From IMG/VR virus record IMGVR_UViG_3300022602_000033: a stretch of 64,000 bases of DNA, one strand, 5' to 3'. Origin of the DNA: a virus. A model generated the notes under the pieces. It searched no databases and had not been told where the DNA came from. It was given only the letters and a program-made list of their open reading frames with translations. This document shows, one piece after another, positions 1 to 63,665 of this stretch. Every line of letters begins with the position of its first letter. Position 1 is the first letter of the stretch. Position numbers and translations under genes: made by a program.

Positions 1-3228
<3,228 letters not shown>

Positions 3229-3247
3229 TTATGGCTAGAGAACAGCA

Positions 3248-3697
3248 TCATTGATTGGCAGATTCTAGCACGCTTACGATCAGCTGTAGGTATCCGCTTG
3301 TGGTGGTGGCAGTGGGATCAGTGCCAGACACATACAGCTGATCACCTGTCTCCAGCACCAATTTACCTGCCAACATCAGCCTGCTGTCGTTGGTAGGGCA
3401 TGGAATGTCGTTCACTATGGTGGTAAACACAGGTGTCTGCACGATGTTGGGATTGTACGTGGTGACCAATCTATAGTGCCAAGCACTGGCACTGTAGGTA
3501 GTTCCTGAGCTGATGTTGGCTATCTGCATGTACAGTATGATGCCAGTGGTGCCAGGAGGAGCTGTGTATACCCAGTAGGTATTGGCTGGGTTACCGCTGG
3601 GAGGAGTTGGTGTGCCCGGTGGTATGGCAGTGTTTGGTGCCAGATACTGCACGTATGAGGTGACAGTCTTGAATGTGTTTAATGGAATACCGGCCAT
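3248..3697 (-). CDS. Putative virion structural protein
   Basis: 149-aa ORF (MAGIPLNTFKTVT...KLVLETGDQL) lying between two fibre genes on the same strand. Confidence 0.65.
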   Translation of the reverse strand: MAGIPLNTFKTVTSYVQYLAPNTAIPPGTPTPPSGNPANTYWVYTAPPGTTGIILYMQIANISSGTTYSASAWHYRLVTTYNPNIVQTPVFTTIVNDIPCPTNDSRLMLAGKLVLETGDQLYVSGTDPTATTTSGYLQLIVSVLESANQ

Positions 3698-3712
3698 GTT
3701 ATGCAGTCCTTG

Positions 3713-6700
3713 TCATTGTAGCGCCAGTATGTATGGCGTCATTATTGCGAACAGGCTCTTTTGGAAGGTGCGCCCGCTCAGTGTACCTGTGTTCTGATTT
3801 ATCACCAATTCAGGACCAATCCTGAAGTTGCCGAGATGGTCAGTGGTGGTATATGCTACCCTACCGCCGTTGGTCATCACCACTTCGTGCGTCTGGTCTG
3901 GTGGATTACCTGCCCTGCTGCTAGTGCGTGCTGGTATGCAGCTGGCGATGTCTGTGCCAGATCCCACATATTCCATGCAGTGGCTGCTGGTTATGATGCG
4001 GCTCACTTGGAACATGTGCATGAGTGAACCATCAGCTGGCGTGTAAGGCAAGTTCTCGTCCAGCGTGACTGTGCCTGTGGCATCACCATTGCTGGTGCCA
4101 TAGGTCACCGTGTAATAGATGGGATAGCCTATGGGTGTGGCCTGTGCTGTGGTCCCGCCTGGATTTTCCGGAGCGCTGAACACAAAGAAGTCGGGTTTGG
4201 CCAGATCCAATGCTGTGTATTGGCTACCACTCACGATCACAGCTACCTGTTCCACGTAGTAGGTTGGCGAACCCAGATATGTGCCACCGTCCAGCGCCAT
4301 CACTGGCTGTACCTGTGCGATTGTTCCACCCGCTAATATAAACGCTTGGTACTGTGCACTGTTGAGGTTGATGCTCACGCTAGGTGGTGACACATAACCG
4401 CTGCCGCTTACTGTGACATTGGCTGCCTGTATGTAATAATACAGCGTCTCAACATAGCATACCTGTCCCACATAGGGACGCACATAGCCTTGGCTTGGTG
4501 CAGCAGGATTGAACAGAGGTAGGTTGTTTACGTACCACAAGCCTGCATATCCGTTGGTGCTGTTGGTTGGTACCAGAGCATTGTCTATGTTGCAGGCATA
4601 CTGCTCATCGCTCATGCCGTCTGCCCAGAGGCCATAGTTGCCAAAGTCTGTGTTGGAATTGGTTATGCTGCAGGTTCCACCGCTCTGGCAGATCACGCCA
4701 ATGTTGCAGCAGATCTCAAAGATGGACACCAGCTGTGCATAGCCACCGTTCTTGATCACTATGCCGTTGCCGCCATGGTTCAGAGCGTTGGTATCATAGG
4801 TTCCCAAGGGCACTGGCACAGGCGTGTAACCTATCTCGTTGTACTGCGTGAACGCATCCAGCACCATGCTGTTGAGACCTTGGCCGCGATAGGGCAGCGT
4901 GCTCTTGAAGGGCACGAACGTGAACGGCCCACCCTGGCTGGTAAACACCAGATTGTACAATGGATAGGTTAGACCGGGGTTGCTCAGTGGGTAAGGCCAC
5001 GAAGTACCAGGCAGCGGGCCACCAAACTCTATGAGCCAGGCATTGTTGCCGTTCTGGCCATCGTAACCTGGCTTGTAGGTCACGCTGCTGATGGGCGTGC
5101 CAGGACCTGCAGTGTTGTACATGATGGGTGCAGCTCCTGCACCATTGCTGACGATCTCTTCCACGATGAGGAACAGCTGGTCCACATACTGTACCACCAC
5201 GTTGCCGCCTGTGAGAGTAGTGTCTATGACCTGTGCGATGTTGCTCTGATAGAGCGGAGCAGTCTGCGTGTTGTTCAGCACGTTCACAGCCAACTGGTTG
5301 GCATATTGGAACGCAGCCACTGTCTGAGGTATCTCACCTGGTATGCGCGAGGTATTACCGTCCCAGTAGAACAGCGCATCGGTCACGCTCTGAGCATTGC
5401 CCAGATGGTAGGTGTCATAGGTAATGGCATCCCAGAGATAGCCCACATCGCGATAGCACTGGCTCTGCAGCACATCGCTGTTGAGAGTGCTAGGAAACAC
5501 CGAGTTAACATAGGCCACCACTTCGGCCTGTGCAAAGGTCCTGTTGCTGTTCATCAGCGTCTGACCGTTGGCCAGAGGATTCACACTGGGACTGTTCTGT
5601 ATGATCTCCAGCACTATGTTGTAGTTGGTAGCTATGGCAGTCACAGCAATGGCACCAGTGTTTCCCAGATAGGTATAAAACACCTGTGGCACGCCGGGAT
5701 CATAGATAGGGCTGAAGTTGGTGTTTGTGACCACGGTCTGTGCTATCTGGCTGGCGAATGCTATGCCTGCCACACAGATTGCTATGCTGCTGGGAGGCAG
5801 CACGCTCACTGGACCGTTTGCTGTCTCTGTCCAGAAATATTCGCCCGCTTGCAGAGCAAGATCGTAGTTGCTGGCCAAAAGGTCGCGGTACACTGCATCA
5901 GTGATGTAACCGATGTCTCGGGCGCTGGTGCTGCTCACAGGATAGGCAAATTCTGCAGCCATGTATGCCACTACCTGGGCCTGTATGAATGGTATGTTGG
6001 CTCGCAGCAGCGTGGCTGCATTCACAAATCCAGGCCTTGCGGGATTCTCCAGATACCATCCGCTGACCACGGTGTCGCCGAATCCAGGACTGGTGTTGTT
6101 CAATATTATCGCGCTGGTGCTGGTCAGCACGTTGTCAAAGGTGTACACATCAACTGTGTTGTAATCAAACTCATCCAGCGAGAATGTGTAGGCTGGGTTA
6201 CCGTCTATGCTGGTGGTACCCACGCTGGTGACCACAGCAGGACTGCCTTCTATACCGCTCTGCAGCAACCAACCAACGTCAACGTTGCCACTCCACGTGG
6301 GCGAATATACCTGATAGAACACTGCGGTGTTACCGCTGGTCCATGACGTCACGGTGTCCACAGTGACGTTACCAAAATCTGGTGAGCTGAGCTTGCGTCC
6401 GCGCACACCGTCAACTATCATGCCTGTGCCAGCCTCGCTGATCTGCACGTTGCCCTGATACTGCCCCAGCGTGATGCTGCTGCAGTTCTGCACGTAGGGC
6501 GATGCCCAATCGTGCAGTTCATGTATCACGGTGGTACCGTTTTCAGGGAATTGCACAGCTGCAGCAGGATACTGATGCCCTCGGAAGGTCATGCCATAGA
6601 GGTAAGTCTTGGGGTTGAGCCAGAAAATGTCCTGCGTGGGATTCTGAGGTGCCACCGTGACAGAACGCAGGTTGTCACCGAACACAGTGATGCCGCTGTG

Positions 6701-7888
6701 TACCAGTATGGGATTGGGCTCTAGATAGTCGCCTGCACGCACATATATGGTGGCATAGATCCAAGGTGTGCTGGGATTGGCTATGAGCTGAGCAGCTGCG
6801 CTGCAAGCGCTGGCAATGGTGCGCTTGGCACGATCTTCGCTGAGACCTGTGTTGGCATCATCACCGTCCACTGTGACATACATCACGCCTGTGACATGTG
6901 GAGCAGTCCTATAGGCTATGCCGCCCACATAGAGATCGTTGCTGACATAGACGCCGCCGTCCACAGGAGTCTGCAGCGTGAGGTTAGCAGTTGCCAGCCT
7001 ATTGCGTATGACATCGTTGACTATCTGCGTGTTCTGGCTGGTGATGGCATTGACGTTGAGCACGTTGTCTGTGCCCCAGGTAAACAAGCTGCTGCCACCA
7101 AACACGTTGCCGCCAGCATTGAACTGCACCGAACGCACGGGCGGAGCAGGTATACCTATGCCAGTTGGACCAGTTACGCCAGTGGGACCCGTGATGCCTG
7201 TGGGACCAGTTGGTCCTGTTGGCCCAGTATAGCCTGTGGGACCTGTGGGACCTGTCTCGCCAGTGGGTCCTGTGGGGCCTGTTTCACCGGTGGGTCCTGT
7301 GGGACCTGTGGTCACAGATGTGGGACCAGTGGGGCCTGTGATCGTGGAAGTGGGACCAGTTGGTCCAGGTATGCCAGGGAATCCCTGCTGTCCGGGCACG
7401 CCCATCAAACCTACTGGACCAGTGGCACCTGTGGGACCATTGGCTGGGCCTGTGGGACCAGTTATGGTGCTTGCAGCACCAGTGGGACCTGTTGGGCCCA
7501 CTGGATACCAGTTGGTGCTGTTGAAATACTCTATGGTGTTGGTATCTGTGTTATAGCGTATCTGCCCTATGACTGGATTGGGTCGCTGGCTGCTGTCACC
7601 TACTGGCAGCACCACAGCGCTGGTACCAGGAAAGGTGAGCTGATAGTTTTGATCGCTGGTCTGGAACTGGGTTACTAGTGTAACACTGCCTGTGGCGAGA
7701 TTGCCCGGCAATGGCGTGTAAACTGGACCTGTGATACCTATCGTGCTAGCTTGTAGCCCGCTGATGGCCACATTTGCAGCGATGAAATTCTGCTGGATGG
7801 CAGCGAAATTGTCCCTGAAGCCTTGGCTGTCATTGTCCTGATTGGCTACGGGAAACTGTGCATTAATGGTGTTGGGGTCTATGGCCAT
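3713..7888 (-). CDS. Large tail fibre/structural protein with a collagen segment and a pectin-lyase-like beta-helix region
   Basis: N-terminal [17 protein letters not shown] motif, GPT repeats, YVTVDGDD...TIYVRAGDY...GDNLRSV segment and two RD(I/V)GY helical repeats. Confidence 0.75.
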
Positions 7889-11000: not shown

Positions 11001-11030
11001 AGAGGTGGGCTCAGTCCCACCTCTTTTCTT
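11001..11030 (+). terminator. Rho-independent terminator
   Basis: AGAGGTGGG-ctcagt-CCCACCTCT hairpin followed by TTTCTT, between convergent genes. Confidence 0.8.
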
Positions 11031-11032: not shown

Positions 11033-11263
11033 CTATATTCTGGGAATCTTACCGTCGCTGCGGGCCACAGGCGGATAACCATCGCGAGTGACCTTGATCT
11101 TGAACTTGGCAGCCTGACGTGGGATCTCATCCACACCCACATCCGGAGTGGTGTTCACGCCCTTGACTATCTTGCCCACGCCAGCCTCCGTGAAGAAAGC
11201 ATAGCTAGACTGATCATCAGCTAGCCTTATGGGGTGATTTGTATCCAGATCCGCGAGCCTCAT
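11033..11263 (-). CDS. Small hypothetical protein
   Basis: 76-aa ORF; TAAATA at 11269-11274, 5 nt before the ATG. Confidence 0.6.
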   Translation of the reverse strand: MRLADLDTNHPIRLADDQSSYAFFTEAGVGKIVKGVNTTPDVGVDEIPRQAAKFKIKVTRDGYPPVARSDGKIPRI

Positions 11264-11280: not shown

Positions 11281-12345
11281 TCAGCTGCGCAGATTCTTGG
11301 CGATGAAATCTTCGATCAATTCCATGTTGTTCTGCAGGCGTTTATCGTTTGGTAACTTGTCCAGTGCCAGCTTGGCCTGTGCCAGAGATTCATCATAGAG
11401 CTTGAGGTTCCAAGCTGCGATGCTGAGCAGATCATGTGGTTGCCATCCCCAGGCTTCAGGTGTGCAAGTGTAATCCATGGGATGCTTGGTTACCTTGAGA
11501 GCACGATGCGCGTAGTCATAGCAGTTCTTCCAATCAGCAGCTTCGTAGTAGTGTTGTGCCAATGCTACCAGAGGTTCACGATGAGTTGGCACTTCATAGG
11601 CAGCTTGCTTGAGCCAGAACAGCTTGTTCTCGGGTTCAGCTTGTGCCAGCGTGGTCAGTGCTTGGCAACGCTCCACGGTGTCGTAGCTCATGCCAAGGAA
11701 TTCCTTGTAGGTGGCAGCACACTTGTCCCAGATCTTTTGGTAAGCATATTCGCGACCAAGATAGGCTTTGATGCGTGAATCATGCGGCCATTCTCTCACG
11801 CTTTCTTCCAACAGCGATAGGTCGCCGCTCTTGCTCTTGGGATCTGGAAAGTGATGTATCTGAAAATCGTCAGTGAAAGTGTGAACTTCAGGTAATCGGC
11901 TGACCAGTCCTTCGTGTGTGGCTCCCATCCAGCGATAGCCCTTGCGACTGTGTATGCGATCACCATACCATTGGCGGCCCGGAGTGCCATCTGCGTTCCA
12001 GTTCCAGATGTATGGATAGCGCAGCCTCGTGGTCTCTGGCTTCCAAGCTGCTTCTAACTTGTCGCGCCAACCAGGTGTCAATCTCTCGTCTGTGTCCAGG
12101 CGTATGCACACATCTATGTCGTCTGGTACCAGGTACATGGCAGTGTTGAACGCATCGTCAAAGCGCCAGGGTACGATACGAACATCTGTGACTTGTACTC
12201 CAAGCTCCAACATCTTTTCCTTGGTGCCATCAGTGCTACCAGTGTCAGCCACGCATATGATGTCGGCATCACAGCAGCTATCATACCAGGGTTGCACGTG
12301 GTGAATTTGGTTCTTGGTTGGTCCGTAAATTGCTATGCGCATCAT
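11281..12345 (-). CDS. GT2-family glycosyltransferase with C-terminal TPR-like helices
   Basis: KNQ...DTGSTDGT, PWRFDDAFN, DxD (LDTDE) and HE motifs; helical repeats at the C-terminus. Start at 12345 (ATGA overlap). Confidence 0.88.
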   Translation of the reverse strand: MMRIAIYGPTKNQIHHVQPWYDSCCDADIICVADTGSTDGTKEKMLELGVQVTDVRIVPWRFDDAFNTAMYLVPDDIDVCIRLDTDERLTPGWRDKLEAAWKPETTRLRYPYIWNWNADGTPGRQWYGDRIHSRKGYRWMGATHEGLVSRLPEVHTFTDDFQIHHFPDPKSKSGDLSLLEESVREWPHDSRIKAYLGREYAYQKIWDKCAATYKEFLGMSYDTVERCQALTTLAQAEPENKLFWLKQAAYEVPTHREPLVALAQHYYEAADWKNCYDYAHRALKVTKHPMDYTCTPEAWGWQPHDLLSIAAWNLKLYDESLAQAKLALDKLPNDKRLQNNMELIEDFIAKNLRS

Positions 12346-13412
12346 GCTTGTTCCTTGATCTTGCCCTGCATCCACTGCAGATTGGTCTTTAATCTATCGT
12401 CAGTTGGTGCCATATCAACTGCCTGTTGGCACCATAATGCTGCCTTGGTATACCAGCCTAGGTTAGCAGCAGCTATGCTGCCAAAGTCCAGCAGCTGATT
12501 ACCCCAAGCATCTGCGTTGTCCAGATAGCTGTGGTCTCGCCTGCTCTTGTCCATGCCGCTGCCTGCAGCCCACAGCAATCCGTGCCAATCTTGGCAATTA
12601 TAATAGTACCGTGCTAGCTCTAACCAGACTTGCCTGCGCTCCGGGCTGCATATCAGTGCCCGCTGTATGTATTCAAGCTTGCGGCTATCGCTCATCCTGC
12701 TGATGTAGATCATGGCTTCTGAACGCTCTATCGGCCATCTGCTGGTCTCTAGATCCAGATAACGATTGAGTTCAGCCACAGCCTCTGCATGCTTGTTGGC
12801 ATACATCAGCTCTCGACCATACCAGAAGCTGAGCTGGCTGTCTGTGGGATCTTCTGTGGTAGCTATGGCCATCAGAGGCAGATAATTGCCGCGTGTGGGC
12901 TTGCTGCGATCCTGTATCTGGTTCAGCATTATGCTGAGATCTTCGGCTATGTTCTCGTAACCCAGCGTGCTGAACACAGTCTCATGCACAGGACGTCGCC
13001 ATTGGTAACCAATCCTTGCATGTATCTTGTCCATGCGATAACCATCATTGGGTCCGCCATCTCTGTAATCAAACACATAGGTGTAGGCCAAACGTGTGGT
13101 CTCGTTCATACGCCACGCTGCTTCCATCTTGGCTCGCCAACCTGCGGCGAGAAACTCGTCCATGTCTTGGCTGATGCAGATGTCAGTGTCGCTGGGCAAG
13201 CAGGCTAGTGCAGCATTGCGAGCATGATCAAAGCGCCACGGATCAAAACGCTGTTCGAACACTGTGACACCCAGCTCTCTGAGCTTCTCAACAGTGCCGT
13301 CAGTGCTGCCAGTGTCCAGCACCACGCGATAATCTGCATCTGAGACGCTGTTGGCCCAGCGCTCGCAGTGCTTGATCTCGTTTAATGCCACCGTATAAAC
13401 GCCTATCTTCAT
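12342..13412 (-). CDS. GT2-family glycosyltransferase with TPR-like helices (paralogue of the previous gene)
   Basis: LNE...LDTGSTDGT, PWRFDHARN, DMDE and PVHE motifs. Confidence 0.9.
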   Translation of the reverse strand: MKIGVYTVALNEIKHCERWANSVSDADYRVVLDTGSTDGTVEKLRELGVTVFEQRFDPWRFDHARNAALACLPSDTDICISQDMDEFLAAGWRAKMEAAWRMNETTRLAYTYVFDYRDGGPNDGYRMDKIHARIGYQWRRPVHETVFSTLGYENIAEDLSIMLNQIQDRSKPTRGNYLPLMAIATTEDPTDSQLSFWYGRELMYANKHAEAVAELNRYLDLETSRWPIERSEAMIYISRMSDSRKLEYIQRALICSPERRQVWLELARYYYNCQDWHGLLWAAGSGMDKSRRDHSYLDNADAWGNQLLDFGSIAAANLGWYTKAALWCQQAVDMAPTDDRLKTNLQWMQGKIKEQA

Positions 13413-13413
13413 A

Positions 13414-14073
13414 TCAGTCCCTTACCATGCGATAGCGCATGCCCTTTTGTAATTTAACTGGAATCTGCTTGGTCATCATATTTGTTGTGAGGAATAATTC
13501 GCTGCAGAAGTCTACGCCATCCACGCTATAAAGCCAAGGTATCCTCGAGAACGTCTCGCCATAGTCTCGCATCACGTGCATGCTGCCATAGCCAAACTGA
13601 TCGTTGTGTGCCACGTACCATGTGCCGCGATGCTGGAAGTTATGGCCGCTGAGTCCCGGATCGTCTGGCACAGTCAGTCCATCAAACGGTTCCAGCACAA
13701 ACTGATCGCAGTGCCAGTCAAAGCGGGCACGAGCCACATAGTCATAGGTCAGGCGATTGTGCCAAGCATGCCGGTCTGCTAGCTGAAGGCTCTGACCTAT
13801 GCTGTACCACATGCTGAGCACGTTGCGCGGTTCAGACCTATAGGCCCAGATCCTGTCCTTGTACATGCTGGTATCAAAGTCTCGCTGAGATTCAATGATC
13901 ATTGCTCTGGGAGCATACGCACTGCTGATCCAGTTGCGAGACAGCTCTTGCTGATCTGACCACGCATGCACGAACACGTCGGTGTCATGCTGATCTATCA
14001 ATCGACGCCAGCTCTCAGTGCTGACTTCAGTGATGCGAGGTAGGCCCGCAAAGCACAGTGCTAGCCTTGCCAT
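13414..14073 (-). CDS. Putative glycosyltransferase-like protein
   Basis: ALCFAGLPR...DVFVHAW...SMWYS...YDYVARARFD...NDQFGYG pattern typical of polysaccharide-locus proteins. Start moved to 14073. Confidence 0.55.
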   Translation of the reverse strand: MARLALCFAGLPRITEVSTESWRRLIDQHDTDVFVHAWSDQQELSRNWISSAYAPRAMIIESQRDFDTSMYKDRIWAYRSEPRNVLSMWYSIGQSLQLADRHAWHNRLTYDYVARARFDWHCDQFVLEPFDGLTVPDDPGLSGHNFQHRGTWYVAHNDQFGYGSMHVMRDYGETFSRIPWLYSVDGVDFCSELFLTTNMMTKQIPVKLQKGMRYRMVRD

Positions 14074-14534
14074 GCCCGCAGCCGGTTCACATAATCGCTG
14101 CAGAAACCGTACCAATGCCAGCTGCGTACCATGTCTTCAATCTCCGGCCATTCATAGGTAGCTTCTGGCATCACGCACACGCTCATGGGACTCACGGTCT
14201 CTGGCTTGCCAAAATAGGTCCACACAATGTTGGTGCTGGTTAATGTAATGAGATCGCTCTCATGCCAGAAGAAGTTGTAGTGATGTTTCTGGCTGCGCAG
14301 TGCAAACAGTGCATCAAGATTCTTGCAGTGTATCCACAATCCTTTTTGTTGTAGGTAATCAAACGCTATCTCATGTTCTGGACCATCATGCCCCAGCACC
14401 CACTTGTTGTCTATGCGCCATAGATCAATCTCTGCTTCGAACCCGTGATCCAGGGCTTTGACGATCTGAGCAGGATCGTTCTGCATCTTTGTGTCTGGAC
14501 CGTCCATCAACCCTCGATGTGCTATGAATCTCAT
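14061..14534 (-). CDS. GDPD/PLC-like phosphodiesterase-fold protein
   Basis: IAHRG, EIDLW, LGHD, WIHCKN and CSDY motifs. Confidence 0.75.
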   Translation of the reverse strand: MRFIAHRGLMDGPDTKMQNDPAQIVKALDHGFEAEIDLWRIDNKWVLGHDGPEHEIAFDYLQQKGLWIHCKNLDALFALRSQKHHYNFFWHESDLITLTSTNIVWTYFGKPETVSPMSVCVMPEATYEWPEIEDMVRSWHWYGFCSDYVNRLRAWQG

Positions 14535-14535
14535 G

Positions 14536-15678
14536 TCACACCTTTAGGTTATCTATGGCATTGCGTATCTTGCGAGCACCAGCCAGCGTGCCTTCTGCAT
14601 GCCCATGTATGGCACCGCCCACGTTGGCCATCCAATCCACACCAAACTTGTCCACGATTGGTGGGATCAGTTCTGCTGTCATGCCACAGCTCAGCGCAGG
14701 AACCACGTTGCCCTTGTGCAGGACATCCATGTATGCTGTGATCTCGGCTTCTGGATCTGACAGATAACCACCCCACATGCCAGCATGTATGGTGTCCACA
14801 CCGCTCATGGCTGCCAACTGACACAGCACAGTCCACTCTATGCCAAAGGGATTCTTCTTGCCAGTGATGACCTTGTCGCCGCTCTTCTGATAGTGTATGA
14901 ACAGCGGGAGGTCAAGATTGCGTATGGTGCGATAGCTACCAAGCCCGCTCCACACGTTGATGTGCACGCCGTTGCCGCCGTTCTGGCTCACGAATCTTGC
15001 ACGGTTTTCAATGTGAGCAGGATCGCTGTTGATGCAGAAGCAATACACAACTCTCTTGTCCTGTAGGTAATTGCTGATCAGCTCAACTCGATCTTCCAGT
15101 CGGCATATGGCAGGATTGCTGAGTATCTCGTCTTCCTTGATGAAGTTAACACCGCCTTCTACCAGCTGCTTGGTCATGTCCAGCAGCGTCTGTGGTGTGA
15201 TGCCAGTCTTGGGCTTGACGATGCCACCGAAGAATGGCTTGCCAAAGTTGCCCGTGTATTCGCGCATGCCAGTGATGCCGTATTTGGGCTTGCGGAAGTG
15301 AGTGTCAATGGTCTGTGGGTGTATCTCCAGACCAACCACTCTGCACTTCTTGATGCTATCTATGTCTGTCTGCCCGCCCTGTATCATGCACAGCAGATGT
15401 GCTATGCCATCACCGTCCCAGTCTATGTTGGCGCTGGGATAGCCTATGGTAACCAAGCCCTTTTTCTTTTCGAAATCCTTGCTGCGGATGATCTTGGCAC
15501 AGTAGGCTTCGATCATCTCGTCTGTTTCCCAGACTGAGCGCTTGGTGGGATTGCCTATGCTCTGCCCCACTGCGATGTTCCAACCTGCGTCGTAGACGCT
15601 AACCGTGCTCTCGACTTCATAGGTAACGTAGAAATACGTGCCCAGTTCTTTTTCATCTCTGACAATATCTATGCTCAT
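14536..15678 (-). CDS. RuBisCO-like protein (form IV RLP)
   Basis: GGIVKPKTG, GGVNFIKEDE (carbamylated Lys/metal motif), IHYQ, DTIHAG, PALSCG and NVGGAIHGH motifs. Lacks the E60, N123, R295 and K334 equivalents by visual alignment. Confidence 0.9.
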   Translation of the reverse strand: MSIDIVRDEKELGTYFYVTYEVESTVSVYDAGWNIAVGQSIGNPTKRSVWETDEMIEAYCAKIIRSKDFEKKKGLVTIGYPSANIDWDGDGIAHLLCMIQGGQTDIDSIKKCRVVGLEIHPQTIDTHFRKPKYGITGMREYTGNFGKPFFGGIVKPKTGITPQTLLDMTKQLVEGGVNFIKEDEILSNPAICRLEDRVELISNYLQDKRVVYCFCINSDPAHIENRARFVSQNGGNGVHINVWSGLGSYRTIRNLDLPLFIHYQKSGDKVITGKKNPFGIEWTVLCQLAAMSGVDTIHAGMWGGYLSDPEAEITAYMDVLHKGNVVPALSCGMTAELIPPIVDKFGVDWMANVGGAIHGHAEGTLAGARKIRNAIDNLKV

Positions 15679-15998
15679 TGTATCTCCACCTTGTCTCCTG
15701 GCACGCTGGGTGCTTTGATTACGAATACCTTGCAGTCTGTGACAAATTCTGGATCAGCTATCTCACCACGCTCCAGCAGGAATATCACCGGTCCTGTCAG
15801 TGTCTGTCCCTGCATCTGCATGGTGCCTTCCAGCAGGAACGTGATCTCGTCCATGTGTTCATGGTAGTGTGCAGCCCATGGTTCACCTGCCACATGATGC
15901 TTGTAGCCCACTTCATAGGCCTCTGTGCGCCAGATGCTGGGTTCAAAATCGCCTATGAACCAACCACCCTGATAATCTTTGGGATCAAACAGCTTCAC
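15675..15998 (-). CDS. Cupin-domain protein
   Basis: GGWFIGDFEPS...HYHEHMDEITF (HxH-x4-E cupin metal motif); GTG start overlapping the upstream TGA. Confidence 0.75.
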   Translation of the reverse strand: MKLFDPKDYQGGWFIGDFEPSIWRTEAYEVGYKHHVAGEPWAAHYHEHMDEITFLLEGTMQMQGQTLTGPVIFLLERGEIADPEFVTDCKVFVIKAPSVPGDKVEIQ

Positions 15999-16708
15999 TT
16001 GTGTGCCTCGATGTATATGTCTAGGTCCTCTGGCATGCCTATGGGCCAGTGCTCCTGCGGTGGGTAGATGCCAATGCGATCGCCTCTGGCAATGTTCCAA
16101 TTATACACTGGACAAACATAGAACTCTCCATTTACACGTACATCATCTGCGATCATCTGCTCAGCTGCCCACACAAAATCCTCACCTCGAGTCCACACAT
16201 AGATGCCAGTGGTAGCATGCGGGCTGATAACCTGTTTCTCTGCGGTGCGCATGGCCAATCCGCGATCATCAACTTCTACATAGCTGTAGGCAGTGGTGTC
16301 CTTGAAGAACGTGAGCATGGCACCGTCCAGTCGCTCAGCAACTAACCACTCTTCAAAGTGATCTTGGTCCCAGACCATCATCTGGTCGCAGTTGGCTATG
16401 AACAGCGTTTCCTTGGGTTTGATGTACTGGCGGGCCAACAGGCAGGTCTCTGCTGCTCCTTGCGTTACCTGATCCACGAACACGAGGTTGAGATCAGCTG
16501 CCATGCCTCTGAGCTGGGCGAACAGCGCAGGATCAGCATCATAGTGCTCGCGCAGCACGCACAGCGTGAACGTGTTGTGCAGGCCCAGATTCTCCAGCAC
16601 ATGCTGTACCATGGGCTTGCCAAAGAATTCTATCAGTGGTTTTGGTTTAGCGTAACCCTGTTGGGCGAACCGTGAACCTCGCCCGCTCATGGGTATGAGT
16701 ATGTGCAT
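15995..16708 (-). CDS. Sugar-phosphate nucleotidyltransferase (NTP_transferase/GT-A fold)
   Basis: IPMSGRGSRF...PKPLI, TQGAAET, NCDQ, EK and NGEFYVCPVYN motifs. Confidence 0.85.
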   Translation of the reverse strand: MHILIPMSGRGSRFAQQGYAKPKPLIEFFGKPMVQHVLENLGLHNTFTLCVLREHYDADPALFAQLRGMAADLNLVFVDQVTQGAAETCLLARQYIKPKETLFIANCDQMMVWDQDHFEEWLVAERLDGAMLTFFKDTTAYSYVEVDDRGLAMRTAEKQVISPHATTGIYVWTRGEDFVWAAEQMIADDVRVNGEFYVCPVYNWNIARGDRIGIYPPQEHWPIGMPEDLDIYIEAHK

Positions 16709-16767: not shown

Positions 16768-17484
16768 TCACGGTTTGGTAGCAGCGAATAGCTTGCCGAT
16801 CTCCACAGCAGTGTCCTTGACGCTGTGCTCAGCCAAGACCAGATCGCTGATGTCAGCATTGTAATCCACACCCACGAATCCAAAAAGATCACCATTGGTC
16901 ATGTAGATCGGACAGCGGATCAGATGCTTGGCTCCGCGGCTCATCCAGAAGTAATAATCTTGGTTTTCTCTGTCCTTGTCGCTGTTCTTGATCACGGCAC
17001 ATCTATCGTTGACAAATTGGTTGTTGATGGCCACGTGTATGCTGGCAGGTATGCGCTGCTCAAAGGTCATGATCCTGGGTGTACCCGGGCTGATCACTTC
17101 ATGCGTCATGGTCTGGAAGAAGAACGGTACGCCGCTGATCGCAGCCAATCCGTTGTGATAGCGATACACGTAGGCTCTCATTCCGTTGGTATCTGACAGC
17201 AATCTGTTGAGATTGCGGTAGATGCTGTTGTCATTCTCCACAGACGTCTTGAGATTCATGCTGAAGCTGGTGATGCTGTGAGCTTCCTCGTAGATGCTGA
17301 CCAAACTGGTAAAATGGAAAGCTATCACGTAGGCTGTGGCAAAGATAGCAGTGATAGCAGCTGTGTATATAAGATGCACAGCCAGCATCAGCGGGCGAGT
17401 GCGAGTTAAATAATCAACTGCTATCTGTGCCAGCGTTGCTTGTTTCTGTTCGTCCAACGGAAAATCCCTTGATTTCAACGCCAA
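16768..17484 (-). CDS. Membrane protein with a GAF-like C-terminal domain; candidate T4 gpT-type holin
   Basis: One N-terminal TM segment, then RAYVYRYHNG...CPIY...GFVGVDY; TAAATA late box upstream (17492-17497). Confidence 0.5.
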   Translation of the reverse strand: MALKSRDFPLDEQKQATLAQIAVDYLTRTRPLMLAVHLIYTAAITAIFATAYVIAFHFTSLVSIYEEAHSITSFSMNLKTSVENDNSIYRNLNRLLSDTNGMRAYVYRYHNGLAAISGVPFFFQTMTHEVISPGTPRIMTFEQRIPASIHVAINNQFVNDRCAVIKNSDKDRENQDYYFWMSRGAKHLIRCPIYMTNGDLFGFVGVDYNADISDLVLAEHSVKDTAVEIGKLFAATKP

Positions 17485-17549: not shown

Positions 17550-18428
17550 ATGGAAGACTATTACAAGATACTAGAGCTGAGCGAGTCAGCATCACCGGAC
17601 GAGATCAAGGCCGCCTATCGCAAGCTGGCCAAACAGCATCATCCGGATCTCAACAAGGGCAACGCCAACAGCGAAGCGCTGTTCAAGAAGATCAACGAAG
17701 CCAACGACACGCTGGGCGATCCACAGAAACGTGCGCAGTATGATCAGCAGCGCAAGTTTGGACAGGGCGGACCAGGTGGCAACCCATTTCAGGGATTCCC
17801 TGGACAGGAGTTCCATTTCAACTTTGGTGGGCAACCATTTGAAGAGATGTTTAACCAGTTCTTTGGCGGCGGCCATCCGTTTGCCAGGCATCAAGCTCGA
17901 AACAGGGACTACCAATTCAACATCAACATCAGTTTGGAAGATGCTTTTGCTGGCAAGAGCGTGCCAGTGAGCTTTGATGCCAACAGCAACCAAACCAGCA
18001 TCACAGTGAACATACCAGCTGGCATGGAGAACGGCGCACGCATGCGCTATCAAGGCCAAGGCGAACGCAACGTGCCTAACGCACCCCCAGGCGACCTTTA
18101 CATCACGGTGATGATCAACGAACACAGCGTGTTCCAACGCCATGCGCAGCATCTACATACCAACATGAAAGTGGATGCGATCGGAGCCATGCTGGGCCTG
18201 CAGCAAGATCTACAGACCATAGACGGCAGCATGATAAATGTCAGCGTGCCCTCTGGCACTCAGCATGGCGCTACTCTGCGAGTGCAGGGGCACGGGATGC
18301 CAGTGCAGCACAACAGCAGGCACCGAGGTGATCTTTACATACACATAGAGCTGTCAACTCCCATCAACCTAACTGAAAGCCAGCGTGACATGCTGCTAGA
18401 GATACAACGCCAGAGGAGCGCCAAATGA
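17550..18428 (+). CDS. dnaJ: DnaJ-class co-chaperone (class II/CbpA-like, no zinc finger)
   Basis: J domain with HPD, G/F-rich linker, DnaJ C-terminal domain (GDLY twice). Confidence 0.92.
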   Translation: MEDYYKILELSESASPDEIKAAYRKLAKQHHPDLNKGNANSEALFKKINEANDTLGDPQKRAQYDQQRKFGQGGPGGNPFQGFPGQEFHFNFGGQPFEEMFNQFFGGGHPFARHQARNRDYQFNINISLEDAFAGKSVPVSFDANSNQTSITVNIPAGMENGARMRYQGQGERNVPNAPPGDLYITVMINEHSVFQRHAQHLHTNMKVDAIGAMLGLQQDLQTIDGSMINVSVPSGTQHGATLRVQGHGMPVQHNSRHRGDLYIHIELSTPINLTESQRDMLLEIQRQRSAK

Positions 18429-18934
18429 TACTGCCCATAGTCACACGCCCAGATCCAGTGCTCAAGCAGACTGCCAGGCTGATAGAACCCCAAGAGATTC
18501 CAGGTCTGGCAACGTTGATCGCAGACATGTTCGACACCATAGCAGCCCACGGCGGCGTGGGATTGGCAGCACCACAGGTCGGACACAGCATCAACCTATT
18601 TGTGGTGCGAGTGGATGGCAACGATCACGTGTTCATCAATCCCGTGGTGCTCAATGCCAGCGATGACATGGATGAGATGCCAGAAGGCTGCCTCAGCCTG
18701 CCAGGACTCACGCTCAAGGTCAAGCGCAGCAAGCAGATCAAGGTCATGTTCAGAGATCGCGAAGGTAACCAGCAGATCACTGACATGGGCGAAGGATGGA
18801 GCAGGATCTTCCTGCATGAGTTTGATCATCTACAGGGCGTGATGATTGACGACAGAGTGGGCCGAGTCACCCTGGACTTGGCCAAGCGCAAGGCAGCCAA
18901 GAAGCAAAAGCGTCAGCAGAGGGTCACAGCATGA
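18425..18934 (+). CDS. def: Peptide deformylase
   Basis: GVGLAAPQVG, EGCLS and HEFDH motifs. Confidence 0.95.
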   Translation: MILPIVTRPDPVLKQTARLIEPQEIPGLATLIADMFDTIAAHGGVGLAAPQVGHSINLFVVRVDGNDHVFINPVVLNASDDMDEMPEGCLSLPGLTLKVKRSKQIKVMFRDREGNQQITDMGEGWSRIFLHEFDHLQGVMIDDRVGRVTLDLAKRKAAKKQKRQQRVTA

Positions 18935-21219
18935 GCATGAACAGCTTCGAACAACCATTACAGCGTGCCTATCAGCTGGCCAGCAGCCTCAATCACGAGC
19001 TGGTCACGCTGGAACATCTGCTGGCAGGACTGCTGGAAATGGAACCCATACAGGAACTGATCACCAGAGGCGGTGGCGATCTCAATAGCCTGGTTAGGGC
19101 AACCAGCGATTGGCTGGGCACAGATGCCAATCACGTGATCGTCAAGGCTGGCAGCTATCAGCCGCGCCACACCAGCTTGCTCAGCAACGTGATCAAGAAG
19201 GCCAAGACACAGAGCATGTTCAGCGGGCGCAACGACATTGGACCGGTGGACATACTGCTGGCACTGTATCACATACCAGATAGCCCTGCCAGTTGGTTCT
19301 TGGAGAAGTTTGCACCGAGCAAGGAACGCATAGCTGAGCTAATCAGCAAAGGCGATGTTTCAGCAGACATGGCCATGGACAGCAAAACCGCGTTAGAAAT
19401 ACTCAGTGCCTACTGCATCGATCTCAATGCCAAGGCACAGGCAGGACGCATAGATCCACTGATTGGTCGTGAAAAGGAAGTGGAGCAGATCACGCAGATC
19501 ATTGCTCGCCGCAACAAGCACAACGTGATCATGACTGGCGATCCTGGCGTGGGCAAGACCATCATCGTGGAAGGATTGGCTCGCCGCATCGTGGAAGGTG
19601 CAGTGCCAGACAGCTTGGCAGATCACACCATCTGGAATCTGGATGTGGCAACGTTGGTGGCTGGCACCAAGTTCAGAGGTGATTTCGAAGAGCGACTGAA
19701 ACAGATCATCGCAGCGTTCACAGCACTGCCCAGGACCATCATGTTCATCGACGAGATACACATGATCATGGGCGCAGGCAATGGTGGCGGTGGCGGTAGC
19801 ATTGATGCTGCTAACATGCTGAAACCAGCTCTGAGCCGAGGCGATATCTGCTGCATCGGCAGCACCACGCAGGAAGAATATCGCAAGCATTTTGAGAAAG
19901 ATCGCGCATTGGTGCGTCGATTCCAAAAGCTGGACATCTTTGAGCCCAGCGCAGAAGACAGCAAACGCATATTACAGGGCATTGCCAAGCATTACGAGGA
20001 ATATCACGGACTGGAGTTTGATGTCTCAGCATTGGATGCAGCAGTTGATCTCACTGCTAGGCACATACATGACAAGTGCTTGCCAGACAAAGCCATTGAT
20101 ATCATAGACAGTGCTGCAGCCTGGCAGAGGATCAAGCCAGAAGCAGAACGTGCCAAGACCATCACCAGAGACCTGATCGAAGCAGAAGTCAGCAGAGTAG
20201 CCAAGGTTCCGGTGACCACAGTGAAGAGCAAGGAAGCTGACAAGCTGAGCCAACTTGAGACAGATCTCAACACCAAGATCTTTGGACAGACAGATGCTAT
20301 CGATGGCGTGGTCAATGCCATCTACATGAGCCGCAGCGGCCTGCGTGAGAGCGATAAGACAGTGGGCAGCTTCCTGTTCTCAGGACCCAGCGGCGTGGGC
20401 AAGACCGAAGTGGCCAAGCAGTTAGCACGCAGCTTAGGCGTGCATTTTGCTAGATTTGACATGAGCGAGTACCAAGAACGTCACACCGTGAGCAAGTTCA
20501 TCGGATCACCTCCGGGCTACGTGGGTTACGGCGACGGTGGCGCAGGCGGTGGCGTGCTGATCAACGAGCTGGACACTCACCCACACTGTGTGCTGCTGTT
20601 TGACGAGATCGAGAAGGCACATCCAGACGTTTACAACATCTTCCTGGCTCTGATGGATCATGGCACAGTGACCAGCAGCCAAGGCAAATCAGCCAGCGCA
20701 CGCAATGCCATCGTGATCTTCACCAGCAATCTGGGCGCAGCTGACATGGAAAAGGAGCTGATTGGTTTCACCAAGAGCACAGTGCGCGACGAAGACACAC
20801 AGGCCATCAACCGGTTCTTCACGCCAGAGTTCCGCAACAGGCTGGATGCAATCATCAAGTTCAACAAGCTGAACAAGGATAACATGGACAGCATAGTTGA
20901 CAAGTTCCTCAGCGAGCTCAATGCGTTAAGCAACAGCAAGAACGTGAACATCGTGTGCGATCCTGCTGCCAAGCAGTGGCTGATTGACAAGGGATTTGAC
21001 ACAAACATGGGTGCACGACCACTGGCCAGAGTGATCACAGACCACATCAAGAAACCACTGAGCCGCGAGATGCTGTTTGGCAAGCTGCGCCACGGTGGTG
21101 CAGTGATGGTCACTGCCAAGGACGGCAAGCTGGAGTTTGAATATCTCAGCAACCCAGAACCCATGGCTGACGACACGCTGCTGTTACCCAGCCCCACAAC
21201 TGAGGATGTCACACAATGA
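18931..21219 (+). CDS. clpA: ATP-dependent Clp protease ATPase subunit ClpA
   Basis: Clp N domain, two AAA modules (GDPGVGKT, GPSGVGKT), KFRGDFEERL, PPGYVG and an IGF ClpP-docking loop; no ClpB middle domain. Confidence 0.92.
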   Translation: MSMNSFEQPLQRAYQLASSLNHELVTLEHLLAGLLEMEPIQELITRGGGDLNSLVRATSDWLGTDANHVIVKAGSYQPRHTSLLSNVIKKAKTQSMFSGRNDIGPVDILLALYHIPDSPASWFLEKFAPSKERIAELISKGDVSADMAMDSKTALEILSAYCIDLNAKAQAGRIDPLIGREKEVEQITQIIARRNKHNVIMTGDPGVGKTIIVEGLARRIVEGAVPDSLADHTIWNLDVATLVAGTKFRGDFEERLKQIIAAFTALPRTIMFIDEIHMIMGAGNGGGGGSIDAANMLKPALSRGDICCIGSTTQEEYRKHFEKDRALVRRFQKLDIFEPSAEDSKRILQGIAKHYEEYHGLEFDVSALDAAVDLTARHIHDKCLPDKAIDIIDSAAAWQRIKPEAERAKTITRDLIEAEVSRVAKVPVTTVKSKEADKLSQLETDLNTKIFGQTDAIDGVVNAIYMSRSGLRESDKTVGSFLFSGPSGVGKTEVAKQLARSLGVHFARFDMSEYQERHTVSKFIGSPPGYVGYGDGGAGGGVLINELDTHPHCVLLFDEIEKAHPDVYNIFLALMDHGTVTSSQGKSASARNAIVIFTSNLGAADMEKELIGFTKSTVRDEDTQAINRFFTPEFRNRLDAIIKFNKLNKDNMDSIVDKFLSELNALSNSKNVNIVCDPAAKQWLIDKGFDTNMGARPLARVITDHIKKPLSREMLFGKLRHGGAVMVTAKDGKLEFEYLSNPEPMADDTLLLPSPTTEDVTQ

Positions 21220-21815: not shown

Positions 21816-23150
21816 ATGATCAGCGTCACACTACTAGGTACCACATACGATCAGATCAACGTCGTTGGACAGAAGGTCCAAGGCGCTGGTTACAACAACA
21901 CGGTTGGTAATAACCATACTGTGAGCATCAATCTGGACAACTTCATAGGCCGCATCTACATTCAAGGAAGCTTGGCCACAGATCCCAAAACAGACAGCGA
22001 TTGGTTCAACATACCCATAGGTAACGGCACAGCATACGTACAGTTCCCGCTTGATCCAGCCCTGCCCACAGGTTATAATCCTGCGCTCAACCAATGGCCG
22101 GCTAATCAATATCCCAATACACAGCAGGGTGATACAGGCATATTTGCCTACAGCTTCAGCGGCAACTACATATGGCTCCGAGCAGTGGTAGACAGGACCT
22201 ATTTGGTACCGCCGCCTACTGATCCTTACTTTGTTGGAGCGGTCAGCCAGATACTGTTGAACTTTGGCGCTGTGGCCGGTAGCAGCACGCTGCCACAAGC
22301 AACCAACACAGGAGGTGCTCAAGGCCCTCCTGGACCTCCGGGTCCCACGGGTCCTAACAGCACTGGTCCCACAGGCGTGGCCGGACCAACTGGTCCTGCA
22401 GCTAGTGGTGCTTTCCAGCGCTATGACAGCTATGCTAGCCCAGGTCAGACAGTTTTCTATGCCACATATGTTCCCAATTATGTGGACGTTTACTACAATG
22501 GACTGCTGCTGGTACCAGTGAATGATTACACTGCCACAGACGGTTCCACAGTGGTATTGACCAGCTCAGCCCTGGGTGGTGACCCGGTAAGCATCGTGGC
22601 CTGGGAGATAGCAAACATCAGTCAGCTCACAGGTCCTACTGGTCCAAGCGGTGGTCCCATAGGTCCCACAGGTGTGACGGGTCACACAGGAGTAACCGGT
22701 CCAACCGGTCCCACCAGCACAGTGCTGGGTCCAACAGGATCAACTGGTTACACTGGTCCCACTGGATCAACTGGTGCTACAGGAGCAGCAGCCACCAACT
22801 TGATCAGCTTCAGGCTGCTGTTTAACAGTGGTATAATATTGCCTACCAACTACGTGGACAGCTGTGTAAACATTGATCCATCACGGATAACCAGGGCCAG
22901 CGACACTCAGATCACTGTGTTACACAACATGAATGCCTATCCGGGCATGACCACTTGCCAAGGCGGTCCTCTGGCTCAACCAGCAGGTGCATACAGGCAG
23001 ACCGTACCAAATGCTGCTACCAGCGGTAGCTACAGCGCTCTCAGCTTGGATATCAACACTACCAGCTTATTCGCTCTAACGCCGGGTAACACAGGCATAC
23101 CAGCCAGCGGCAACGGATATCTCTGGGTTTCCATGATATTCTCTGGTTGA
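21816..23150 (+). CDS. Collagen-containing structural protein
   Basis: GPT repeats plus a GQTVF...VDVYYNG beta module; TAAATA at 21788-21793. Confidence 0.75.
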
Positions 23151-23163
23151 TAGAGGCATAGGC

Positions 23164-25368: not shown

Positions 25369-25435
25369 TCACTAGTATGCAGCTAAACTAAATACTGCCA
25401 GCTGTATTAGCCAAGATCTGCGAGCTGGGAACAGG

Positions 25436-57712: not shown

Positions 57713-57715
57713 TGA

Positions 57716-62680: not shown

Positions 62681-62737
62681 GTAGATCTCCAATCGTGTTA
62701 TACGATTGTGCTAGAAACTAGAAGTTTAGTCAACTTG

Positions 62738-63664: not shown

Positions 63665-63665
63665 A

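What the first reader, a model, noticed from the sequence alone, without database searches (positions are those of the whole stretch)
11281..16708. Phage-encoded RuBisCO-like protein embedded in a sugar-activation and glycosyl-transfer operon
Seen: seven co-oriented genes abut or overlap (nucleotidyltransferase, cupin, RLP, GDPD-like, putative GT, GT2-TPR, GT2-TPR). The RLP keeps the K175/K177, K201-x-D203-E204, H294, H327 and phosphate-binding SxG/GG equivalents, but by eye has G for E60, G/Q for N123, Y for R295 and Y for loop-6 K334. Established: form IV RLPs do not fix CO2. They perform enolase, isomerase or (trans/de)carboxylase chemistry on phosphorylated sugars in methionine salvage and in hamamelose and apionate catabolism. 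Inference: here the RLP works biosynthetically with the cupin (epimerase/isomerase), phosphodiesterase and nucleotidyltransferase to make an unusual, possibly branched-chain, NDP-sugar or polyol-phosphate that the downstream GTs transfer. That would be an uncharacterised RLP pathway carried by a virus.
Basis: partly seen in the sequence, partly recalled or inferred. Interest (0 to 1): 0.88.

Follow-up and report, generated by a model that had tools for sequence, protein, structure and literature searches.

The report
Megaphage RuBisCO-like sugar-activation gene cassette
A freshwater giant phage carries a RuBisCO relative that cannot fix CO2 and that sits beside, and in other genomes is fused to, a sugar-activating enzyme, a small cupin and a miniature phosphodiesterase, upstream of three glycosyltransferases, so it probably helps build an unusual activated sugar, a job never shown for this enzyme family.

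Summary
The operon is real. Seven abutting or overlapping minus-strand genes encode a nucleotidyltransferase (NTase), a 107-aa cupin, a 380-aa RuBisCO-like protein (RLP), a 157-aa miniature GDPD-fold phosphodiesterase, a GT-A-fold protein (DUF7796) and two paralogous GT2-TPR glycosyltransferases. The host is a freshwater megaphage; related contigs reach 485-518 kb.

The RLP keeps K175, K177, K201, D203, E204, H327 and the P1 glycines. It has E60G, T65N, N123G, H294Q, R295K, H298D and K334Y. This signature is at least 92% conserved at 19 of 20 sites in 87 clade members.

The RLP is neither MtnW nor OiaX. It belongs to the phage/Beckwithbacteria "IV-like" clade already reported by Jaffe et al. 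2019.

In 83 viral loci the NTase is present in 80, the cupin in 71 and the mini-GDPD in 54. In 50 cellular loci (Legionella, SAR11, DPANN, CPR) the NTase is present in 45. Natural fusions RLP-NTase, RLP-NTase-cupin and GDPD-RLP tie all four into one pathway. The glycosyltransferases vary between loci.

A biosynthetic role in making an activated sugar is well supported. The chemistry is unknown, and a branched-chain product has no support. This scan has found the same cassette before on other phage DNA.

The parts
15995..16708 (-). Sugar-phosphate nucleotidyltransferase, 237 aa, with the G-x-G-x-R signature
   Evidence: PF00483 35.1 bits above cut-off. Best solved relative is 4evw at 1.2e-16, then RmlA at 5e-6. 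Present in 80 of 83 viral and 45 of 50 cellular RLP loci. Fused to the RLP in 21 protein clusters.
15675..15998 (-). Small metal-site cupin, 107 aa; GTG start overlaps the NTase stop
   Evidence: Motif read. H44, H46 and E51 are invariant. Profile matches Cupin_2 structures at 2.9e-6. Present in 71 of 83 viral loci. It is the C-terminal domain of the RLP-NTase-cupin fusions P0275 and P0276.
14536..15678 (-). RuBisCO-like protein, 380 aa (P0001), of the NTase-linked 'IV-like' clade
   Evidence: PF00016 2.3e-37. All NCBIfam RuBisCO and RLP equivalog models score far below their cut-offs. Clade support is 99. Active-site signature.
14061..14534 (-). Miniature GDPD/PLC-fold phosphodiesterase-like protein, 157 aa (P0272)
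   Evidence: H6, R7, N19, E35, D37 and H49 are invariant. Profile hit to GDPD 7e0v at 5.7e-5 over the HRG/EN/ExD/HD motifs. Model pLDDT 93. The top 22 VIA rows are all GDPD or PLD, Z 8.9-11.9, with about 147 of 157 residues aligned. Fused N-terminally to the RLP in P0175.
13414..14076 (-). GT-A-fold glycosyltransferase-like protein (DUF7796); probable start is the ATG at 14076
   Evidence: PF25072 1.6e-8. Model pLDDT 95. Foldseek best hits are GT6 enzymes BoGT6a and ABO transferases, E 1e-6, with 264 hits at or below 1e-3. Present in 41 of 83 viral loci.
12342..13412 (-). GT2 domain plus TPR glycosyltransferase (first copy)
   Evidence: PF00535 at 21.3 bits is just under cut-off, with TPR hits. 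phrog_13126 1.2e-84. SunS peptide glycosyltransferase 7msp at 4.4e-5.
11281..12375 (-). GT2 domain plus TPR glycosyltransferase (second copy, paralogue)
   Evidence: phrog_13126 4e-86. 35% identical to the first copy, E 1e-67. The pair occurs only in 13 of 83 loci.
11033..11263 (-). Co-oriented 76-aa ORF closing the operon, function unknown
   Evidence: Conserved in 6 related loci at the same relative position. No family hit.
16768..17484 (-). Co-oriented 238-aa upstream ORF; conserved only in the megaphage subclade and not part of the core cassette
   Evidence: Found in 10-11 loci. No Pfam hit. The L003 orthologue has a weak GAF hit.
11001..11024 (.). 9-bp-stem GC-rich hairpin between the convergent transcription units; a possible terminator
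   Evidence: Consensus scan. The number of such sites is close to the chance expectation, so this is a weak feature.

Best explanation
The four genes NTase, cupin, RLP and mini-GDPD form one biosynthetic cassette. It turns a phosphorylated keto-sugar of the host into an unusual nucleotide-activated sugar or sugar/polyol-phosphate donor. The downstream GT-A-fold protein and the two GT2-TPR enzymes then transfer that donor.

Inferred mechanism:
- The RLP uses its intact Mg2+/carbamate site (K181, D183, E184, equivalent to K201, D203, E204) and K155/K157 to enolise a keto-sugar phosphate held by the intact P1 site. It reprotonates the intermediate to give an isomer or epimer.
- It cannot add CO2 or cleave C2-C3, because K334, E60, N123 and H294 are replaced.
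- The product, directly or after the cupin (a metal-dependent isomerase or epimerase) and the mini-GDPD (a phosphodiester or phosphoryl-migration step), is coupled to NMP by the RmlA-like NTase.
- In this megaphage the GT2-TPR architecture resembles the peptide and protein glycosyltransferases SunS and GmaR, and collagen-like fibre genes lie nearby. The acceptor is therefore most likely a protein, possibly a virion fibre.

Shown here: gene content, folds, active-site signature, synteny, fusions and phylogeny. Inferred: substrate, reaction order, product and acceptor.
For: 1. Linkage. In 83 viral RLP loci the NTase is present in 80, the cupin in 71 and the mini-GDPD in 54, all on the RLP strand. 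In 50 cellular loci the NTase lies within about 2 kb in 45. At least four of the five exceptions have the RLP near a contig end or a truncated match.
2. Fusions. There are 21 clusters of RLP-NTase proteins of 666-672 aa, two RLP-NTase-cupin proteins of 813-817 aa and one GDPD-RLP fusion.
3. Constraint. Nineteen of the 20 active-site positions are at least 92% conserved in 87 members from Legionella to megaphages; the T173 equivalent varies (G/A/S). This implies one retained reaction.
4. Neighbours. On the same strand are NAD-dependent sugar epimerase/dehydratases, CmcI- and FkbM-type methyltransferases, WavE, GT1/4, GT2, GT10, GT11 and a DegT aminotransferase. In Legionella the neighbour is LicD.
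5. Folds. The mini-GDPD fold and catalytic motifs are supported. DUF7796 has a GT-A fold.
6. Placement. The RLP is separate from MtnW, OiaX-like and form III. Its nearest outgroups sit in sugar catabolic operons, so a keto-sugar phosphate substrate is plausible.
Against: - No enzyme assay exists for any clade member, and none was found in the searchable literature.
- The core cassette has no kinase or mutase. It is unclear how a phosphate placed as RLPs need it becomes the anomeric phosphate that RmlA-like NTases use.
- The cupin and the mini-GDPD are dispensable in some lineages: Legionella has only RLP plus NTase, and six viral loci lack the cupin.
- LicD in Legionella suggests a CDP-alcohol-type donor rather than a glycosyl donor.
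- The GT2-TPR link to protein glycosylation rests on weak hits (4.4e-5 to SunS; 0.084 to GmaR).
- No RNA data are available.
Confidence: 0.6

Rival explanations
1. Same cassette, different order and donor type. The NTase makes a CDP/NDP-linked alcohol-phosphate (teichoic-acid-like, as with CDP-ribitol or CDP-glycerol). Its phospho-group, not a glycosyl group, is transferred, and the mini-GDPD handles the resulting phosphodiester. Alternatively, the RLP acts on the nucleotide-linked intermediate after activation.
For: A LicD-family phospho-alcohol transferase sits next to RLP-NTase in four Legionellaceae loci. More distant homologues' NTases hit NTP_transf_3, the IspD/TarI type. A GDPD-fold enzyme is a phosphodiesterase by family. 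RLPs bind a phosphate on a primary carbon next to the carbonyl.
Against: The window's NTase is closest to RmlA-like sugar-1-phosphate enzymes. Most neighbours are Leloir-type glycosyltransferases, which need NDP-sugars. LicD was found only in the Legionellaceae loci.
Confidence: 0.2
2. The RLP module is catabolic or salvage. It breaks down or recycles a host sugar phosphate or a SAM by-product during infection, like MtnW, the R. rubrum RLP or the apionate enzymes. Its adjacency to glycan genes would then be incidental.
For: All characterised RLPs are catabolic or salvage enzymes (established knowledge; Carter 2018 and Erb 2012 as cited in PMC6389311). The sister sequence P0142 lies with an FGGY kinase, a split transketolase, an aldolase and an ABC transporter. 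P0176 lies with PFK, ROK and an ABC transporter.
Against: Inside the clade no kinase, aldolase or transporter is linked. The NTase is near-universal and is fused to the RLP. MtnW and OiaX model scores are 93.5 and 127.9 against cut-offs of 513.6 and 700.
Confidence: 0.08
3. The cassette modifies phage DNA (sugar hypermodification of bases) or attacks a host signalling nucleotide, rather than building a surface or protein glycan.
For: Jumbo phages often hypermodify DNA, and the window also carries a QueE-like gene. A phosphodiesterase and a nucleotidyltransferase could in principle act on nucleotides.
Against: The same cassette sits in cellular glycan loci (SAR11, Legionella, Nonomuraea) next to WavE, fucosyltransferase-type GTs, sugar methyltransferases and LicD. 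No DNA-glycosyltransferase, base-modifying or defence family hit was seen in the operon.
Confidence: 0.05

Closest known systems
'Form IV-like' RuBisCO-related proteins of phages and Beckwithbacteria (Jaffe, Castelle, Dupont, Banfield 2019, Mol Biol Evol; PMC6389311)
   Same: This is the same clade. It is phage-borne, highly divergent from other RLPs and only partly conserved at catalytic residues. A Beckwithbacteria sequence (L104) falls inside the clade here.
   Different: That paper left the function open. In the passages read it does not describe the NTase-cupin-GDPD cassette, the fusions, or the spread to Legionella, SAR11 and DPANN genomes. This copy is in a megaphage lineage of about 0.5 Mb and is followed by a GT-A-fold protein and two GT2-TPR genes.
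MtnW/YkrW 2,3-diketo-5-methylthiopentyl-1-phosphate enolase (methionine salvage RLP)
   Same: It has the RuBisCO large-subunit fold and the K201/D203/E204 Mg site. It enolises a monophosphorylated keto substrate. It has lost K334 and N123.
   Different: It forms a separate clade. TIGR03332 scores 93.5 bits against a cut-off of 513.6. The active-site set differs: here K177 and H327 are kept, with Q at 294 and Y at 334. There are no methionine-salvage neighbours.
OiaX 3-oxo-isoapionate-4-phosphate decarboxylase and related apionate-pathway RLPs (Carter et al. 2018)
   Same: These are RLPs acting on a phosphorylated keto-sugar acid. OiaX is one of the better, though still weak, NCBIfam matches (third by score).
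   Different: NF042437 scores 127.9 bits against a cut-off of 700. The OiaX-like clade is separate and keeps E60, N123, H294, R295 and K334. Its context is catabolic, not NTase-linked.
Classical NDP-sugar pathways (RmlA-type nucleotidyltransferase plus cupin-fold RmlC/FdtA plus glycosyltransferases)
   Same: An RmlA-like NTase and a small cupin sit beside glycosyltransferases, sugar methyltransferases, SDR epimerase/dehydratases and a DegT aminotransferase.
   Different: No known NDP-sugar pathway contains a RuBisCO-fold enzyme or a miniature GDPD-fold protein. The core cassette has no 4,6-dehydratase.

Membership tests
RuBisCO large-subunit superfamily (PF00016 / PF02788) | Significant match to both the catalytic TIM-barrel domain and the N-terminal domain | tested here: met
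   PF00016 129.3 bits (cut-off 30.1) and PF02788 24.5 bits (cut-off 20.7). There are 99 solved RuBisCO/RLP chains at E <= 1e-3, the best being 2cwx at 1.3e-33.
Bona fide RuBisCO (forms I-III) | Full carboxylase residue set: E60, N123, H294, R295, H298 and K334 alongside K175, K201, D203 and E204 | tested here: not met
   E60G, N123G, H294Q, R295K, H298D and K334Y. TIGR03326 scores 166 bits against a cut-off of 497.
MtnW/YkrW DK-MTP-1-P enolase | Reaches the equivalog model cut-off and groups with MtnW in a tree | tested here: not met
   TIGR03332 scores 93.5 against 513.6, and NF007095 scores 118.9 against 409. The MtnW representative P0212 lies outside the clade.
OiaX 3-oxo-isoapionate-4-phosphate decarboxylase | Reaches the equivalog model cut-off and groups with OiaX-like sequences | tested here: not met
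   NF042437 scores 127.9 against 700. The OiaX-like clade is separate.
Phage/Beckwithbacteria 'IV-like' RLP clade (Jaffe et al. 2019) | Phage-borne RLPs that form one clade with Beckwithbacteria sequences, apart from other form IV groups | tested here: met
   The clade has 87 rows with SH-aLRT 99. It contains the window, IMG/VR contigs and a Beckwithbacteria MAG (L104). 408 IMG/VR loci encode a relative.
Sugar-phosphate nucleotidyltransferase (PF00483, RmlA-like) | Pfam match above cut-off and an N-terminal G-x-G-x-R nucleotide-binding signature | tested here: met
   35.1 bits against 21.2. G9, G11 and R13 are invariant in 25 orthologues. 4evw matches at 1.2e-16 and RmlA at 5e-6.
Glycerophosphodiester phosphodiesterase (GDPD, PF03009) / PLC-like phosphodiesterase fold | GDPD fold with the HR...EN...ExD...HD catalytic and metal residues | tested here: met
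   The fold is matched: the top 22 VIA rows are GDPD or PLD at Z 8.9-11.9, and unrelated barrels begin at Z 7.9. Foldseek's top hits are GDPD. The motif residues are invariant and align to 7e0v at 5.7e-5. Caveats: there is no Pfam hit, the protein is about 90 residues shorter than normal GDPDs, and the 'EIK' motif reads 'HCK'. It is a divergent miniature member whose activity is untested.
Cupin superfamily | Conserved motif 1, G-x5-HxH-x3,4-E-x6-G, and a beta-barrel match | tested here: met
   Motif 1 is present. H44, H46 and E51 are invariant. The profile matches Cupin_2 structures at 2.9e-6 to 6e-4. The His of motif 2 is absent, and no Pfam model reaches threshold.
GT-A-fold glycosyltransferase (for DUF7796) | GT-A Rossmann-like fold match to solved glycosyltransferases | tested here: met
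   Model pLDDT 95. There are 264 Foldseek hits at E <= 1e-3; the top hits are GT6 BoGT6a and ABO transferases at 1.3e-6, TM about 0.55. Donor and acceptor are unknown.
GT2 glycosyltransferase (PF00535) with TPR, SunS-like | Pfam GT2 match above cut-off; TPR C-terminal half | tested here: inconclusive
   PF00535 scores 20.6 and 21.3 bits against a cut-off of 23.3. However, phrog_13126 'glycosyltransferase' matches at 4e-86 and 1e-84 and SunS 7msp at 4.4e-5. TPR hits are below cut-off.

The most novel reading that the evidence does not exclude
This RLP clade catalyses a reaction not yet known for the RuBisCO fold. It acts inside a four-enzyme route (RLP, NTase, cupin, mini-GDPD) that makes a nucleotide-activated sugar unknown to current glycobiology. 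Giant phages use that sugar to glycosylate their own proteins, and SAR11, Legionella and DPANN/CPR cells use it in surface glycans.
Probability: 0.35. Interest if true: 0.85.

Novelty: new variant of a known kind. Interest (0 to 1): 0.7.

Why it matters
Every characterised RuBisCO-like protein works in catabolism or salvage. A clade that is hard-wired, by synteny and by gene fusion, to a sugar nucleotidyltransferase would give the RuBisCO fold a biosynthetic role. It would also point to an undescribed activated sugar.

The cassette is widespread: 408 IMG/VR loci, plus SAR11, Legionella, DPANN and CPR genomes. The product could therefore be a common but unseen component of aquatic microbial and viral surfaces, relevant to phage-host recognition.

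The question is directly testable. The four proteins are small and soluble-looking, fused versions exist naturally, and cultured carriers are available (Azospirillum oleiclasticum, Nonomuraea rosea, Legionella species).

Tried and rejected
- Megablast of the operon and tblastn of the RLP against 50,697 GenBank phage records gave no match. No isolated phage in that collection carries this RLP. PHROGs has no family for it.
- No whole genome is held for the window.
- Methionine-salvage and apionate assignments were rejected on model scores and tree position.
- The DUF7796 profile gave no sequence hit against solved structures. Only the fold search resolved it.
- The window's cupin shows only a marginal local match (8e-4, 42 residues) to the GPI-type cupin beside the sister RLP P0142. 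Homology of the two cupins is not shown.
- The LicD lead was found only in Legionellaceae loci, not in the window or in viral loci.
- Promoter and terminator scans gave counts near the chance expectation.
- Sequencing runs: the stretch is held by freshwater and lake metagenomes of several studies. No RNA holder is listed, so nothing can be said on expression.
- Complex prediction (RLP with NTase) was sent four times and the machine could not be reached. No result.
- The protein atlas gave only the proteins' own, mostly viral, clusters and generic Cupin_2 or weak GDPD leads.
- Literature searches for the cassette found nothing.


Full report
**What is in the sequence**

The window is phage DNA. 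It carries collagen-like tail fibre genes, a ClpA-like ATPase, QueE and an HNH endonuclease. The ClpA-like protein is closest to those of the 469-490 kb phages Phosso and Atu_ph07, at 45-49% identity. The nearest relatives of the operon lie on contigs of 485-518 kb. The stretch is held by freshwater and lake metagenomes of several studies.

Between 17484 and 11033 a run of minus-strand genes abuts or overlaps:

| Coordinates | Product | Main evidence |
|---|---|---|
| 16768-17484 | 238-aa ORF, unknown | no Pfam hit |
| 15995-16708 | RmlA-like nucleotidyltransferase (NTase) | PF00483 above cut-off |
| 15675-15998 | 107-aa cupin; real start GTG at 15998, overlapping the NTase stop | full cupin motif 1 |
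| 14536-15678 | 380-aa RuBisCO-like protein (RLP) | PF00016 2.3e-37 |
| 14061-14534 | 157-aa GDPD-like protein | |
| 13414-14076 | DUF7796 protein | PF25072 |
| 12342-13412 and 11281-12375 | two GT2-TPR proteins, 35% identical | |
| 11033-11263 | 76-aa ORF | conserved in 6 loci |

**Folds of the unnamed parts**

- The 157-aa protein was folded with 31 orthologues, giving pLDDT 93.
- Foldseek's top hits are GDPD and PI-PLC enzymes.
- In a search that does not depend on Foldseek, the top 22 chains are all GDPD or PLD enzymes. They score Z 8.9-11.9 with about 147 of 157 residues aligned. Unrelated barrels begin at Z 7.9.
- The GDPD catalytic residues (HR, EN, ExD, HD) are invariant in the orthologues. 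They align to a solved GDPD at 5.7e-5.
- DUF7796 (pLDDT 95) has a GT-A glycosyltransferase fold closest to GT6 enzymes, with 264 hits at or below 1e-3.
- The GT2-TPR proteins match phrog_13126 at 1e-84. Their best solved non-TPR relatives are SunS (4.4e-5) and, much more weakly, GmaR (0.084). Both are peptide or protein glycosyltransferases.

**The RLP active site**

Two independent alignments agree: HMMER against form III 2cwx and MAFFT against form III representatives.

- Kept: K175, K177, K201, D203, E204, H327, S379, G381, G403, G404.
- Replaced: E60G, T65N, W66P, N123G, H294Q, R295K, H298D, K334Y, G380C.
The retained His is the H292 equivalent.
- The Mg2+/carbamate site and the P1 phosphate site are therefore intact.
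- The residues needed for CO2 addition and for hydration and cleavage are gone, and the distal phosphate site is remodelled.
- Nineteen of the 20 positions are at least 92% conserved in 87 clade members from Legionella to megaphages; the T173 equivalent varies. This argues for a retained, single catalytic function.

**Phylogenetic place**

- No NCBIfam RuBisCO or RLP equivalog model comes near its cut-off.
- In a tree of 107 representatives at 50% clustering, the phage-type sequences form one clade with support 99. MtnW, YkrW-like, OiaX-like and form III groups are separate.
- In a second tree with 96 rows, the clade has 87 rows with SH-aLRT 99. Its deep branches are cellular: Legionellaceae, Francisellaceae, Azospirillum, Nonomuraea, then SAR11 plus DPANN archaea, then CPR including Beckwithbacteria. 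The crown is mostly viral.
- The window sits in a terminal megaphage subclade with L007, L009, L010 and L001.
- This is the "IV-like" phage/Beckwithbacteria clade already reported by Jaffe et al. 2019, who left the function open.
- The sister sequence P0142 and the next group (P0176) lie in sugar catabolic operons. Those operons hold an FGGY kinase, a split transketolase, a GPI-type cupin and an aldolase, or PFK and ROK. The sister shares Q294 and Y334.

- 408 IMG/VR loci encode a relative.
- In 83 loci (80 IMG/VR loci, two megaphage assemblies and the window), the counts are: RLP 82, NTase 80, cupin 71, mini-GDPD 54, DUF7796 41. All are on the RLP strand.
- The GT2-TPR pair is present in only 13 loci, all close relatives.
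- Other recurrent neighbours are NAD-dependent sugar epimerase/dehydratases (27 loci), CmcI- and FkbM-type methyltransferases, WavE, GT1/4, GT2, GT10, GT11, a DegT aminotransferase, a DHQ-synthase-like cyclase, an SDR and an APH-like kinase.
- In 50 cellular loci the NTase is within about 2 kb of the RLP in 45; at least four of the five exceptions lie near contig ends or are truncated matches. The mini-GDPD is present in 24 and the cupin in 16.
- These cellular loci include isolate genomes of three Legionella species, Nonomuraea rosea and Azospirillum oleiclasticum, and a complete Pelagibacter chromosome.
- In Legionellaceae the pair RLP-NTase faces a LicD-family gene.

**Fusions**

- 21 protein clusters of 666-672 aa are RLP-NTase fusions. 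They come from several sources and from contigs of up to 47 kb.
- Two proteins of 813-817 aa are RLP-NTase-cupin fusions.
- One protein, truncated at 288 aa, is mini-GDPD-RLP.
- All four core components are thus joined to the RLP in some lineage. This is the strongest available evidence that they act in one pathway.

**Interpretation**

The evidence supports a biosynthetic cassette that makes a nucleotide-activated donor for variable glycosyltransferases. The RLP would supply an enolisation-based isomerisation or epimerisation of a keto-sugar phosphate.

What is not known is the substrate, the order of steps, the nucleotide, the product and the acceptor. Three points remain unresolved:
- The core has no kinase or mutase.
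- RLPs bind a non-anomeric phosphate, whereas RmlA-like enzymes use an anomeric one.
- LicD in Legionella hints at a phospho-alcohol donor.

A phosphoryl-migration role for the mini-GDPD through a cyclic phosphodiester would bridge the first two points. That idea is pure inference.

There is no support for a branched-chain product or for CO2 use. For this megaphage, the SunS/GmaR-like GT2-TPR architecture and the neighbouring collagen-like fibre genes make a protein acceptor plausible. That too is inference.

**Novelty**

- The clade is published (Jaffe et al. 2019). No paper in the searchable library links it to a nucleotidyltransferase, a cupin or nucleotide sugars.
- Earlier notes of this scan describe the same cassette on other phage DNA.
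- I re-tested their main claims here: the spread to cellular genomes, the fusions, the catabolic cousins and the H294Q/R295K mapping. All of them hold.

Noticed in passing
window 54000-64000: This region has clearly lower GC (0.41-0.47 against 0.50-0.55 elsewhere). It holds a run of at least nine minus-strand ORFs of 228-477 aa with no Pfam family. It may be a separately acquired block.
   Followed up: partly
window 17550-21219: A DnaJ-like protein, a peptide deformylase and a ClpA-like ATPase lie divergently next to the cassette. The same arrangement is kept in megaphage contigs of 485-493 kb.
   Followed up: partly
window 1-7888 and 21816-31735: Several very large collagen-like tail-fibre genes (1391 aa, 444 aa, 734 aa) and a 2099-aa ORF flank the glycan operon. 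They are candidate acceptors for the GT2-TPR enzymes.
   Followed up: no
L003 1-147 and 15506-15736: A related 485-kb megaphage encodes a ribosomal protein L33-like gene and an eIF-1a/IF1-like gene close to its RLP cassette.
   Followed up: no
P0239 (583 aa): This protein is a TIR domain fused to a distant RLP (27% identity to the window's RLP). The architecture is odd and might belong to a defence system.
   Followed up: no
L087 5593-9287 (MAG GCA_023488455.1): The sister RLP P0142 sits directly after a GPI-type cupin and a split transketolase. An FGGY kinase, a class II aldolase and an ABC sugar transporter are nearby. This looks like an uncharacterised sugar catabolic pathway using an RLP with Q294 and Y334.
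   Followed up: partly
L135 6773-7624 (Legionella drozanskii), also L133, L134, L138: A LicD-family phospho-alcohol transferase lies divergently adjacent to RLP-NTase in Legionellaceae. Neither a cupin nor a mini-GDPD is present there.
   Followed up: partly
L064 3077-4141; L071 2367-5061: Some viral RLP loci also carry a DHQ-synthase-like sugar-phosphate cyclase, an APH-like kinase and an SDR. This may be a separate cyclitol module beside the cassette.
   Followed up: no
P0296 (724 aa): Here the RLP is fused to a 299-aa protein family with no Pfam hit. That family recurs in 11 viral RLP loci (cluster 20).
   Followed up: no
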